A stretch of 46,821 nt of DNA from Schmidtea nova (Eukaryota): contig CM097882.1 of NCBI GenBank assembly GCA_044892505.1, forward strand, positions 335,296,001 through 335,342,821, read 5' to 3'. A program made the position numbers and the translations under genes. Below the pieces are notes generated by a model. It was not told the DNA's origin and ran no database searches. It was given only the letters and a program-made list of their open reading frames with translations. Of this stretch, positions 3,016 through 37,523 are shown piece by piece; position 1 is the first letter of the stretch; each line of letters opens with the position of its first letter.

Positions 3016-3478
3016 TGAGCGGTTTAGTCCAGCGCAAATGAAAGAGCAGATAACAGAGACTCAACGAGCCCAGAGAGCGGGTGAAGAATATCGATTAGAG
3101 CTCGAAGCTACCAAAATCGAATTACGGAAATGCTTGCGTTCCTTCACCACCGATTTCATTGAAACTGAATTAAAAAGTCTAATCCGACCAGTCACCTATC
3201 AATACTGGTCGCCGGGAAAATGTTCAGGATGTTCGGTAGGAACCGATACCGATGGGTTATCTCGAACCACAGAAGTCACAACAATACCAACCCCGACCAT
3301 GAAAATAGTTACAACAACCGAAAACAATAAGAAAAAGAAGAAAAATAAAATGGGTTCACGGCAAAGGAGATCGAATAAAGTAATTAATCCAGTCGATGAT
3401 ATGTCTGAGATAGCAGAAATAGATTTGTCTATGGAATTTGTACCTATAGATGACGATTTCCTGAAATTCTTCGAATAA
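3016..3478 (+). CDS. ORF-Y copy A (unknown coiled-coil/NLS/acidic-tail protein), fused in frame to the hAT remnant
   Basis: FSPAQMKEQ..LELEATKIELRKCLRSFTTDFIETELKSLIRPVTYQYWSP aligns by eye with copies at 10253, 21410 and 37158. AATAAA at 3474-3479 overlaps the stop. Confidence 0.6.
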
Positions 3479-3794
3479 ATCTCGATATATATAATTAACT
3501 GATATTTAAAAAATGGCGTTTGTGAAAATATAGTTTTATTCTCTATATTTATTTCTTATTTTTTTGTGTAATATAAAGTAAAATAATTAATAGATTCAAA
3601 CTTGTTTTATAAAGTATAAAATATTCTCGTAACAAGGTATACAAAATTAATAATAATTAAAAATTTAAGGAACATTAGGAGTATAAAGCAAAATATATAT
3701 TAATGATACGTTTTGCCTGTTGATATTGTAAGGGGCAGTAGGGATAAAATGAAAGATAATGCTTTCAATGAAGTAAAGTGAAATTAAAGCGTAA

Positions 3795-3928
3795 GTCCTT
3801 CTATCGGCAGCAAGGAACCCGCGAACATAAATGGGGAGTAGTTCTAGAAATAGAGCTCACTTGCCCATCATTGTTCAAACACCTTGCACATTTCCAACTC
3901 GACTATCCAGGGAAATATTCGAGGGTGC
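3795..3928 (+). ncRNA. Conserved two-hairpin structured element, copy A
   Basis: CCTTCTATCGG..GAACCC, then hairpin 1 (GGGGAGTAGTTCT/AGAGCTCACTTGCCC), then hairpin 2 (GCAC-ATTT-CC-AAC-TCGA..TCGA-GG-GTGC). The unit ends ..aaacccagca at 4012. Confidence 0.6.
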
Positions 3929-4013
3929 TTGTGTGTAGCGTAAGCATTTTATGCATGGGTATGGATAGAGGCGTCCCTAGAATGTTTTAATTTAACCCGT
4001 CCAAACCCAGCAT

Positions 4014-4130
4014 AATAAAATTTTTGATTTATAATCTTTACATTCCAATATAATAAAAAATTTTAATTTATAATTTTACATTCTAATATAAGTTTTGATT
4101 TATAATTTTTACATTCTAGGAAAATTTTAA
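4014..4130. repeat. AT-rich minisatellite, about 3 imperfect ~37-bp units
   Basis: Recurrent ttt(g/a)atttataat(t/c)tttacatt(c)(c/t)aata. Confidence 0.6.
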
Positions 4131-4499
4131 TTTAAAATTTTAATATTTTAATTTTCACGTAATATATTATCTATAAAAGTAAATTTTAATTTTTATAACC
4201 AAATCTGAAAATATTATAAGAATTATACCATAATAAAATTTTTATTCACGAATTTTGCAAACTAAATAATTCAATCTAAAAAATTTTAAATATTAAATTA
4301 TCTTCAAAAATAAAATATAAATTTTTAGAAAATTAATTCCCATCTATGGGTTTCTAAAAATAAGGCATATAAAATTCTAGCCGGTTCTTTTGGCGATCTC
4401 TAATATTCAAAATTCTACATGCAGTTTTTAGAAGTGTTTATCAATGAGGTTCATGATTTAGAGTAAAATTCACGAAATACTATCGAACATAATCATTTT

Positions 4500-5000
4500 C
4501 ACCGCTCTTCGAGTAATCATTTACGAGCTTTTATACGTTTGACTTTTCGACCGATTTTTCGAGTTCTTTCGTAGTGAAGTAGAGATGACGTTTATTGAGC
4601 GAAGGCGATTGACGAGACGAATGAATATTTCCTATTCATTTTTATTATGTTCGCATCTTTATGTAGTTATCAGAATCATACCATTTGATGTAAATAAATA
4701 TAAATACGATACTATAAATAAAATATTCATTTGTGTCATTGAATACCATATCGCATTTCAAAAAAATGTAATAGGATTCTAGACGTTAATTATTTTGAAC
4801 AGACCTTGCGCTTGGCCAATCCACTACTCCTAATATATCCAGGTATGAGATGAAGCGTTTTTGGATGTATTTGCTCACTTCGATGAAAAAATGGATCAGA
4901 ACGCTGAAAGGACTCCAGCGAAATAATGATTCACCAAAGTGGCTAATGACGGTACAACGACTAAACAAATTGAGAAATGAGCATTAACAAGAAAAAGCAC
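4500..5000 (-). pseudogene. Decayed pair of overlapping unknown ORFs (a/b), copy 1
   Basis: Homologous to 30130-30510. Frame b SDPFFH..HPKTLHLIPGYIRSSGLAKRKV matches HPNSLHLIPDYMRSSG*AKCKV with several third-position changes. Frame a ends PSLATLVNHYFAGVLSAF*, matching PSLVT*VNHQLAGVCSAF*. Confidence 0.55.
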
Positions 5001-5253
5001 AATTAAAACAAAAATAAAAAAATGAAAAAGCGAGAAAAATGACAAAGATGTGAAATTTGAGTAAAAGTTAATAAATAAAAAGAATAAAAGAATAATTATG
5101 AAATTAATAAGAAAAATAATAAAATAATAATGAATAAAACCTAGGATAATAAAATAAATTATTAGGAAAATCGAGCTTTTAACCAATAAAAAGGTTACTC
5201 GATTCTGATTGGCTGCCTGAACGTCGATTTTACTATAAGGAAGCGCTCAGGTC

Positions 5254-36090: not shown

Positions 36091-36304
36091 TTGTGACAAA
36101 TGTGATCCTGTGTAGTAGGGAATAATTATTGTTATCCAAGTTTTTTTGATTTAATACCTAAATTTGCGAGATTTCGTTAAATTAAATACATGAGTCGAAT
36201 GACATAAATTAATTTAAACTCTCACAAATAATTCATATAGTATGAAAGCCTCCGTTGCACAAGCCCGCGACAAGTCAGAAAAACGACAACGAGAAGTGAA
36301 ACAA

Positions 36305-36435
36305 NNNNNNNNNNNNNNNNNNNNNNNNNNNNNNNNNNNNNNNNNNNNNNNNNNNNNNNNNNNNNNNNNNNNNNNNNNNNNNNNNNNNNNNNNNNNNNNN
36401 NNNNNNNNNNNNNNNNNNNNNNNNNNNNNNNNNNN
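36305..36435. other. Assembly gap (N run)
   Basis: Direct reading. Confidence 1.
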
Positions 36436-36811
36436 GTGGGCGTCCGGTCGGACACTTGAAAACCACCCCCTTTATATTAATTTTATTAATTTAATTATAA
36501 TAATTATTTCGTCATGAAATTAAAATTAAAATTAAAATTTAATTCAAAACTAAAATCAATAGCCATAACTATGGAAGAATTAACTATAGAAATAGCTAAG
36601 TCAAATAAAAGAAATTTAATTTAAAAAACTGAAAGCTAAGAAACGGTGGAAAATAAAAACAAATAAAAATATAAAGAAATTATGATAGTTTATGAATGAT
36701 CAACAATAATTTAGTTATTATTATTACGCGAGTAACAGTTCTTTTATATTTTATCATTGTTAATAGAATAAAAGTTGTTATTCATATATTGTTTAGTTTT
36801 TTGTTGTTGTA

Positions 36812-36812
<1 letters not shown>

Positions 36813-36848
<36 letters not shown>
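36813..36848. repeat. (TA)n microsatellite
   Basis: Direct reading. Confidence 0.95.
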
Positions 36849-36849
<1 letters not shown>

Positions 36850-37075
36850 TAATGCAATCATTTAATTAACACAACATTCACCCCAGTAGTCCTAAGACAA
36901 TTTTTACAAGAGACTCTGCTGGGCTCTACGAAATCTTCTTCCAGAAAAATGTAACTACATAAATATCTAGCCTATACAAGTAAAAACAAATTACCCACTA
37001 TTTATAAGAACATACAATTAGGAATACCTAATACAGCTGAAAGCTCAAATCTGACAGCTAACGCTCAGAATACAG

Positions 37076-37523
37076 ACCTGATAACCCGTTGTTTCATCCG
37101 TGAGCAGATGAGAGACCAGACGATGAAAACGGAACAGGAAAAACGCACTTCGCCGACATGCAACTTGAGCTTGATGCAGTCAAGTTGGAATTGAGACGAT
37201 GCCTCAGTGCCGTCACCCGATCCTTTATCGATGACGAGCTGAAATCATGCATCCAACAATTCACCTTCCAGCACTGGACAGGCCCAACAGCGCACCAACT
37301 TTCGATAGGAACTGATGCGCACGAACTACCAGTGGAATCAACCTCTGATGTGCCAAGTCAAATACTGGTTAAAAACTGCCCCATTCCGACAACCAAACGA
37401 AAACGTATAGGAGCGAAGTGAAAAAGGCAGAAAAAAGCATGGACCCGAAAATTGATCGCTCAAATTGACCGATTAGATGATATGACAGAGTTGGATCTGC
37501 TGGCGGAGGTCATCCCGTTATGA
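37076..37523 (+). pseudogene. ORF-Y copy D (frameshift near 37140, internal TGA at 37419)
   Basis: ctaac..tacag acceptor-like sequence; FIREQMRDQ / MQLELDAVKLELRRCLSAVTRSFIDDELKSCIQQFTFQHWTGP..GTDAH..KRKR..DDMTELDLL. AATAAA at 37558-37563. Confidence 0.7.

What the first reader, a model, noticed from the sequence alone, without database searches (positions are those of the whole stretch)
3016..37523. ORF-Y protein family: coiled coil + basic NLS + acidic hydrophobic tail
Seen in four diverged copies (A 3016, B 10253, C 21410, D 37158), with weaker candidates at 23403-23902 (-) and ~35240. Shared pattern: (W/Y)FSP..LEL(E/D)AxK(I/L/V)EL(R/N)(R/K)CL..(D/S/K)FI..L..I..T..W.(x)P..GT(D/Q), then an S/T-rich linker, a basic cluster (KKKKKNK, KRKRRK, RRRKSR, KRKR) and, in A, C and D, an acidic-hydrophobic tail (DDMSEIAEIDL, DDMTELDLL, EVDLL). 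Conservation at protein level despite low DNA identity implies past purifying selection. Inference: a nuclear dimerising regulator such as a transactivator or host-defence antagonist. Function is unknown.
Basis: partly seen in the sequence, partly recalled or inferred. Interest (0 to 1): 0.75.

Follow-up and report, generated by a model that had tools for sequence, protein, structure and literature searches.

The report
Protein genes inside giant retrotransposon LTRs
The four copies are decayed remnants of a small gene of no known family that sits inside the long terminal repeats of giant, virus-like retrotransposons in a flatworm-type genome; it is kept by natural selection and likely makes a two-chain nuclear protein that helps the element control its own RNA.

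Summary
The four copies are real and homologous. They are remnants of solo LTRs of giant (25-30 kb) Gypsy-type retrotransposons built like planarian Burro elements (one polyprotein of 4,100-5,600 aa: gag, env-like fusion domain, PR-RT-RH-IN, ankyrin).

ORF-Y (144-203 aa) lies inside the ~3 kb LTR, not in gag or env. It is open in both LTRs of 5 of 5 elements picked by their gag alone. It is under purifying selection (pN/pS 0.21; shifted frames 1.20 and 1.46), and 30 of 35 start codons follow a splice acceptor (background 10-13%). A second LTR gene, ORF-X, lies upstream; the '35240' candidate is ORF-X, and 23403-23902 is single-copy with no supported link.

ORF-Y is predicted to be a parallel coiled-coil dimer with a linker, an Arg-rich helix and a short tail that is acidic only in some lineages. 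No homologue or fold match was found. Between lineages it diverges far faster than RT (27-56% against 90-99%), and one pair shows the LTR cassette swapped.

Most likely function (inferred, ~40%): a Rev/Rex-like nuclear regulator of the element's own RNA. Expression is unshown.

The parts
3017..4012 (+). Copy A: 3' third of a solo LTR, 5' part missing; abuts a hAT (zf-BED) transposase fragment at about 3016
   Evidence: DNA match to 29 of 29 relatives from 3017-3021 on; LTR end; zf-BED at 1475-1756
3023..3478 (+). ORF-Y copy A, 5'-truncated, open to its stop
   Evidence: codon-position bias
4962..11186 (+). Copy B: nearly whole solo LTR interrupted by a hAT element
   Evidence: 77-85% DNA match to both LTRs of full-length elements B64 and B261
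5208..5240 (+). CCAAT + TATA-like promoter of LTR B (inferred from motif and conserved place)
5254..7871 (-). hAT transposon inserted just behind the TATA-like box of LTR B, 8-bp target duplication; not part of ORF-Y
   Evidence: sequence; Pfam Dimer_Tnp_hAT and DUF4371
9327..9786 (+). ORF-X of LTR B (second LTR gene), shortened at its 3' end
   Evidence: 82-83% protein identity to ORF-X of B64/B261; profile i-E 8e-48
10253..10688 (+). ORF-Y copy B, splice acceptor-like site before the ATG, one frameshift
10932..11186 (+). Conserved structured 3' block of the LTR (also at 3790-4012, 22063-22290 and, cut short, 37672-37718)
20918..22290 (+). Copy C: 3' part of a solo LTR with a short ORF-X relic and ORF-Y (21410-21938; no start codon, deletion, frameshift)
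34309..34343 (+). CCAAT + TATA promoter-like site, probably of LTR D
   Evidence: 34584-34730 matches D-like loci
35179..35610 (+).
   Evidence: profile i-E 2e-27
37140..37523 (+). ORF-Y copy D, 5'-truncated, one in-frame stop

Best explanation
ORF-Y is a gene inside the LTR of giant Burro-type retrotransposons, kept by purifying selection, and it likely encodes a dimeric nuclear protein that binds the element's own RNA and helps the full-length transcript escape splicing and leave the nucleus, as Rev or Rex do. Shown: place inside both LTRs, open frames in young elements, selection, splice acceptor-like sites before the start codon, a promoter-like site upstream. Predicted: parallel coiled-coil dimer, disordered linker, Arg-rich helix. 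Inferred, untested: a short spliced mRNA from the LTR promoter, nuclear import and RNA binding by the basic helix, a host partner bound by the tail, and an RNA target among the LTR's hairpins. The four window copies are dead solo-LTR remnants.
For: Place: both LTRs of 5 of 5 elements chosen by gag and of 5 more chosen by paired ORF-Y hits (one 5' copy frameshifted); the profile hits only LTR sequence. Selection: 10 of 10 non-overlapping pairs pN/pS 0.07-0.30, pooled 0.21 against 1.20 and 1.46 in shifted frames; core 0.11, basic helix 0.15, coil 0.24, tail 0.25, linker 0.46. Acceptor before the ATG in 30 of 35 copies against 10-13% of all ATGs (copies are related, about 7 lineages). CCAAT+TATA at +340 to +400 in 7 of 7 LTRs examined. 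Homodimer of residues 1-118: score 0.56, best control 0.02, runs agree in at least 84% of contacts, pLDDT at least 71; the mark was reached by 21 of 30 solved homodimers and 0 of 23 single chains (eukaryotes 17 of 29 and 0 of 30), and a pass may come from likeness to solved coiled coils. Need for such a factor: by eye ORF-X, RING, TRAF and the coiled-coil ORF also start behind acceptor-like sites in several elements, so a 25-30 kb genome RNA must avoid many splice sites. Candidate RNA targets: lineage-specific leader hairpins in 4 of 6 LTRs and a 3' block with 21 of 28 pairs showing compensatory change. In B357 against B301 the promoter end stays 71-80% alike while the X/Y middle is replaced, so Y travels with the transcribed leader rather than with the promoter DNA.
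Against: No expression data: no RNA holder was listed. No sequence or fold link to Rev, Rex, Tat or any protein. By eye the tail has no consistent leucine-rich export signal across lineages (alignment), and its helix-cap plus paired hydrophobic residues fits a coactivator-binding motif equally well. The start and polyadenylation sites of the LTR transcript are not mapped; B357 has no AATAAA beyond +380. Two of six LTRs showed no strong leader hairpin. Basic helices bind DNA, RNA or importin alike.
Confidence: 0.4

Rival explanations
1. ORF-Y is a transcriptional transactivator of its own LTR promoter, working like foamy-virus Tas: a dimer with a nucleic-acid-binding basic region and an acidic activation tail.
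For: Dimer prediction, constrained basic helix and tail, about 200 aa and fast divergence between lineages. Tas proteins are 209-308 aa, poorly conserved, dimeric and have an acidic activation domain (PMC3798896, passages), and act species-specifically (PMC7390438, passage).
Against: The tail is not acidic in B- and C-type lineages. The promoter end of the LTR did not change with ORF-Y in the B357/B301 swap. The order coil-linker-basic is not bZIP.
Confidence: 0.25
2. ORF-Y is a host-defence antagonist, for instance against nuclear piRNA/PIWI silencing, or acts through the LC8 hub protein.
For: X and Y are the fastest-diverging proteins of the element. The element carries other host-manipulating genes (RING, TRAF). 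Burro is a SMEDWI-2 target (PMC8532177, passages). A TQT anchor follows the coil in 7 of 12 C-type rows and in window copy C; TQT is the LC8 anchor (PMC6607443, passages).
Against: Within lineages selection is purifying, with no sign of dN/dS above 1 in the pairs tested. TQT is absent at that place in the other 43 rows, where D, E, S or N mostly replaces Q, and the same paper says many TQT peptides do not bind.
Confidence: 0.2
3. ORF-Y is a structural or trafficking cofactor of the particle or of the pre-integration complex (nuclear import of a 30-kb cDNA), not a regulator of expression.
For: Coiled coil, basic cluster and an LC8-like motif are common in such cofactors (general knowledge). It is present in 10 of 10 elements whereas ORF-X is found in 7 of 10.
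Against: A cofactor that docks on gag or pol would be expected to track them, yet Y is 27-56% identical where RT is 90-99%, and was swapped between near-identical internal regions.
Confidence: 0.1
4. ORF-Y is an ordinary gag/env fragment or a chance frame in a repeat.
For: No homologue anywhere and no expression evidence.
Against: The profile finds nothing in the polyproteins; in-frame selection with shifted-frame controls; conserved acceptor plus ATG.
Confidence: 0.02

Closest known systems
Burro / GYPSM1 giant Gypsy-like LTR retrotransposons of dugesiid planarians (PMC6431247, section 7 read whole)
   Same: 25-30 kb; one polyprotein with CCHC gag, env-like fusion domain between gag and pol, PR-RT-RH-IN and ankyrin; a separate MATH/TRAF gene; many frames of 5,140 aa, the length quoted for the D. 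tigrina element.
   Different: That text names no protein gene inside the LTR (its figure could not be seen). The TRAF ORF lies downstream of the polyprotein here, upstream in the element described there. BIR and BCL2 were not found by Pfam in the one element scanned.
Rev/Rex/Rec export regulators of complex retroviruses (recalled, no call)
   Same: Small, oligomeric, Arg-rich protein predicted to come from a spliced mRNA of an element with many acceptors; structured RNA in the LTR.
   Different: No sequence or fold similarity; long coiled coil; no consistent export signal; coded wholly within the LTR.
Foamy virus Tas (PMC3798896, PMC7390438; passages)
   Same: About 200-300 aa, dimeric, poorly conserved between lineages, acidic tail in some ORF-Y lineages.
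   Different: No homology; Tas is made from an internal promoter outside the LTR; ORF-Y tail is not acidic in two lineages.
LTR-coded genes of retroviruses: MMTV sag, HIV nef (recalled, no call)
   Same: A protein gene within or overlapping the LTR, made from spliced RNA.
   Different: Those lie in U3; ORF-X/Y lie downstream of the LTR's promoter-like site, come as a pair, and are carried whole by solo LTRs.
ORF0 of rice Retrosat2 (PMC3485330, passages)
   Same: Long LTRs (>3 kb) and a fast-evolving extra ORF of no known family.
   Different: ORF0 lies upstream of gag-pol as an extra ORF and is not described there as within the LTR; no homology tested or expected.

Membership tests
Burro giant LTR retrotransposons (carrier element) | Giant size, paired LTRs with TG...CA ends and target-site duplication | tested here: met
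   25-30 kb; LTR pairs 99.3-100% identical in 9 of 10 (the tenth has a deleted 5' LTR); 4-bp duplication in 7 of those 9
Burro giant LTR retrotransposons (carrier element) | Single ~5,000-aa polyprotein: CCHC gag, env-like fusion domain, PR-RT-RH-IN, ankyrin | tested here: met
   Pfam on B460 (4,965 of 5,147 aa scanned): zf-CCHC, Monjiviricetes_fusion 1e-71, RVP, RVT_1, RT_RNaseH, rve, Ank_2 in that order
Burro giant LTR retrotransposons (carrier element) | MATH/TRAF and RING accessory domains | tested here: met
   separate RING and zf-TRAF+MATH ORFs
Burro giant LTR retrotransposons (carrier element) | BIR and BCL2-like motifs | tested here: inconclusive
   not reported by Pfam in the one element scanned; profile-profile search not available; the review shows that domain content varies between Burro elements
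Burro giant LTR retrotransposons (carrier element) | RT clusters with named Burro-1 to -4 | not testable with these tools
   no named Burro sequence was on hand
gag or env fragment | Similarity to gag/env of the element or of Pfam | tested here: not met
   profile hits only LTR sequence in 10 elements; no consistent Pfam family among 55 rows
bZIP factor | Basic region directly N-terminal to the zipper | tested here: not met
   basic helix lies about 50 aa C-terminal to the coil, behind a disordered linker
Rev/Rex/Rec family | Sequence homology | tested here: inconclusive
   no hit in Pfam, PDB sequences or viral folds; helical folds give weak searches
Rev/Rex/Rec family | Arg-rich motif binding a response element; CRM1 export signal | not testable with these tools
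   Arg-rich helix present and constrained; binding and export need experiments
LC8 (DYNLL) client | TQT anchor in a disordered region | tested here: inconclusive
   present in 7 of 12 C-type rows, absent at that place in the other 43; binding not modelled

The most novel reading that the evidence does not exclude
Burro LTRs carry a self-contained, swappable two-gene regulatory cassette (promoter, splice sites, ORF-X, ORF-Y and their RNA targets). Each LTR type acts as a lock-and-key system for its own lineage, and thousands of solo LTRs can still make these proteins in the host's cells without the rest of the element.
Probability: 0.25. Interest if true: 0.8.

Novelty: new variant of a known kind. 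Interest (0 to 1): 0.58.

Why it matters
Burro elements are known, abundant and provirus-like, but the papers I could search name no gene inside their LTRs. A selected, orphan regulatory gene in the LTR would make an invertebrate Gypsy element behave like a complex retrovirus. Because solo LTRs keep the promoter-like site, acceptor and frame, the genome holds thousands of potential expression units: at least 6,416 LTRs carry one exact 3' motif. The cassette gives a direct handle (RNAi, reporters, CLIP) on how these giants are switched on in a regeneration model where piRNA loss de-represses them.

Tried and rejected
Homology searches for ORF-Y found nothing usable: 5.8-billion-protein search with one protein and with the 55-row alignment, both near-length only; 1.84-billion representatives gave one hit at E 3e-4, a tandem-repeat artefact; Pfam; PDB sequences (coiled-coil peptides at E>=0.095); Foldseek PDB and viral; ESM Atlas best 0.86, below the useful range. 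The monomer model has pTM 0.36, so fold searches are weak.

ORF-X folds as a compact alpha/beta domain (pTM 0.70) but matched nothing: (best Z 2.8).

Expression: no RNA holder listed. Two of the four listed runs, of unknown kind, were laid on one LTR; none of the 13 joints had GT..AG ends. No conclusion drawn.

Rfam: 0 hits in the window at gathering score; one weak chance hit in one LTR. No tRNA in the window.

A first pair of hits 32 kb apart was a segmental duplication, not an element. The five A-type LTRs followed by a primer site had decayed interiors. The ORF-Y tree of 8 elements was unreliable (long branches); B47 and B64 dropped out of the RT set.

The Gypsy pol relics at 13.0-16.2 kb and 43-45.5 kb of the window gave no DNA match to the 10 elements and are taken as unrelated.

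Earlier findings: none. The original Burro paper was not held, and figures are not held.
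Full report
Observation. The four copies are in the sequence as described. A profile built from 55 natural frames finds A, B, C and D at i-E 1e-61 to 2e-13 and nothing else of ORF-Y in the window. All four are damaged: A and D lack their 5' part, B and C are frameshifted, C has no start codon, D has an in-frame stop. The ~35240 candidate is a relic of a different gene, ORF-X. The 23403-23902 candidate matches only itself in the genome and scores 3.7 bits against the profile; I leave it out.

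What carries the ORF. Copy A has 8,447 first-look candidates in the window's 1.25-Gb genome, of which the best 150 were scored. Relatives sit in a ~3.0-kb unit with TGTTG...CAACA-type ends. Six of 11 loci examined have a 4-bp target duplication; of the rest one is a 5' LTR, one is truncated, one has lost its start, one differs by a base and one does not match. These are solo LTRs. Five LTR ends followed by TGG within 6 nt led to a shared primer site (tRNA-Pro-like; label recalled, not tested), a RING ORF and a zinc-knuckle gag. That gag finds dozens of frames of 4,100-5,160 aa. I fetched five such elements, chosen by gag alone. All five have two LTRs, and ORF-Y (190-198 codons) is open in both. 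Five more, chosen by paired ORF-Y hits and so biased, agree; one 5' copy is frameshifted. LTR pairs are 99.3-100% identical in 9 of 10, so these insertions are young.

The carrier is Burro-type. Pfam on one element gives zf-CCHC, a Monjiviricetes fusion domain (1e-71), protease, RT, RNase H, integrase and ankyrin in one frame, plus RING and TRAF/MATH ORFs. This matches the description of planarian Burro/GYPSM1 (PMC6431247, section 7 read whole), including env between gag and pol and a 5,140-aa polyprotein. The host is therefore inferred to be a dugesiid planarian. BIR and BCL2 were not found in that one scan. The ORF-Y profile hits only LTR sequence in the 10 elements, so it is no gag or env fragment. 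Exact-motif counts give at least 6,416 LTRs and 2,985 primer-site matches (some elements repeat the site), with 0 in reversed controls.

It is a real gene. In 10 pairs with no sequence reused, pN/pS is 0.07-0.30 (each p<=1.3e-4), pooled 0.21, against 1.20 and 1.46 in the shifted frames. By region: core 0.11, basic helix 0.15, N-terminal coil 0.24, tail 0.25, linker 0.46. These pairs were chosen from open frames, which favours low values slightly, but window copy A against 16 relatives (6 with stops in the match) shows the same codon bias (15.5/9.0/30.2%). A CCAAT+TATA site lies at +340 to +400 in 7 of 7 LTRs and is seen in window LTRs B and D. A pyrimidine-rich YAG lies within 15 nt before the ATG in 30 of 35 copies, against 12.5% and 9.8% of all ATGs in the window and the elements; the 35 fall into about 7 lineages, so they are not independent. 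This predicts a spliced mRNA from the LTR promoter. It is not shown: no RNA run was listed, and the polyadenylation site is unclear.

The protein. AlphaFold2 on the alignment gives helices 3-44 and 48-98, a short helix 101-109, disorder 113-145, an Arg-rich helix 151-175 and two short tail helices (mean pLDDT 80.5, pTM 0.36). Two copies of residues 1-118 are predicted as a parallel in-register coiled coil: score 0.56, best control 0.02, runs agreeing in at least 84% of contacts, pLDDT at least 71 (alignment not used). The mark was reached by 21 of 30 solved homodimers and 0 of 23 single chains (eukaryotes 17 of 29 and 0 of 30); a pass can come from likeness to solved coiled coils. Conserved L79 and C82 lie in the interface. 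The tail is acidic in A-like and D-like lineages only. C-type copies have ETQT after the core in 7 of 12 rows, an LC8-type anchor (PMC6607443, passages); the other 43 rows lack it there. No homologue or fold match was found.

Evolution. Among 8 elements RT-RNase H is 90-100% identical, while ORF-Y is 27-56% identical between lineages and 93-95% within them. ORF-X is 17-39% between lineages, and internal accessory ORFs 45-77%. RT is synonymously near saturation between most lineages, so they are old. One pair is decisive: B357 and B301 differ by dS 0.20 in RT and 0.26-0.44 in four accessory ORFs, but are saturated in X and Y. Their LTRs are 71-80% alike in the first ~450 nt, 72-86% in the last ~300, and mostly 41-61% between. 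The gene-bearing middle was exchanged as a module. ORF-Y is in 10 of 10 elements, ORF-X in 7 of 10.

Mechanism. I commit to a Rev/Rex-like nuclear regulator of the element's RNA (0.4). The element appears to make many spliced mRNAs, since several ORFs start behind acceptor-like sites (by eye), yet it must export a 25-30 kb unspliced genome. ORF-Y has the parts of such a factor: oligomer, constrained Arg-rich helix, short hydrophobic tail. It travels with the transcribed leader, which holds lineage-specific hairpins in 4 of 6 LTRs, and a covarying RNA structure ends the LTR. Against this: no homology, no consistent export signal, no binding data. A Tas-like transactivator (0.25; PMC3798896 and PMC7390438, passages), a silencing antagonist (0.2; Burro is a SMEDWI-2 target, PMC8532177, passages) and a particle or import cofactor (0.1) remain open. 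The Rev/Rex, sag and nef comparisons are recalled, not from a call.

Novelty. The carrier is known. In searches for Burro with planarian, LTR, solo LTR, ORF and GYPSM1 and for ORFs within LTRs I found no description of a gene inside Burro LTRs. PMC11410931 (passages) mentions Burro once without detail; PMC3485330 (passages) describes an extra ORF upstream of gag-pol in a plant element. The original Burro paper, its supplements, the Repbase entry and all figures were not available, and an ORF may be drawn there. I rate it a new variant of a known kind, with an orphan protein family, interest 0.58.

Noticed in passing
window 3790-4012, 10932-11186, 22063-22290; alignment A5: The last ~250 nt of the LTR form a conserved structured RNA: two nested stems, 21 of 28 predicted pairs with compensatory change in 21 copies, often a GNRA-type loop, no Rfam match. 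It could be a packaging, priming or response element, or a ribozyme.
   Followed up: partly
window 9327-9786 and 35179-35610; L188:3387-3884: ORF-X: a second LTR gene of 166-190 aa, predicted compact alpha/beta fold (pTM 0.70), dN/dS 0.15-0.21 within lineages, 17-39% identity between them, no homologue; missing from B460, B47 and B499.
   Followed up: partly
L188-L191 against L196-L199 (B357, B301): Internal genes differ by dS 0.20-0.44 while ORF-X and ORF-Y are synonymously saturated: the middle of the LTR was exchanged by recombination.
   Followed up: yes
L088:6921-8024 and L088:8095-8661: Two more accessory ORFs of no known family lie between the TRAF ORF and the 3' LTR: a ~360-aa coiled-coil protein starting MGN (possible myristoylation) and a ~190-aa protein with hydrophobic stretches at the N-terminus and near the C-terminus; both under purifying selection.
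   Followed up: partly
L086-L088, L090-L092: Many elements have a 4,118-aa polyprotein beside the 5,140-aa form; B47 gave no RT-RNase H match, so a widespread internally deleted, probably non-autonomous class exists.
   Followed up: no
window 5254-7871: A hAT element sits a few bases behind the TATA-like box of LTR B, with an 8-bp target duplication.
   Followed up: yes
window 2249-3478: The hAT transposase fragment and truncated ORF-Y copy A form one chance open frame of 409 codons.
   Followed up: yes
window 22283-22372: A short B-type ORF-X-like stretch follows the end of LTR C (i-E 0.07), suggesting that LTR C landed in an older LTR.
   Followed up: no
window 40578-41208 (-): Exons of a host acetyl-CoA transporter (Acatn) gene.
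   Followed up: no
window 13000-16150 and 43189-45800: Decayed Gypsy pol fragments of other families.
   Followed up: partly
window 28079-28248: A 17-bp tandem array inside a repeat shared with 39100-39260.
   Followed up: no
G000 C2, 5-45 Mb: More than 20 intronless dynein light chain (LC8) genes in clusters; 61 matches genome-wide.
   Followed up: no
L012, L013, L015, L018, L019, L021: A RING + RRM-like 190-aa ORF next to a solo LTR is repeated in a tandem/inverted cluster at C1:395.5 Mb (domain names by eye).
   Followed up: no
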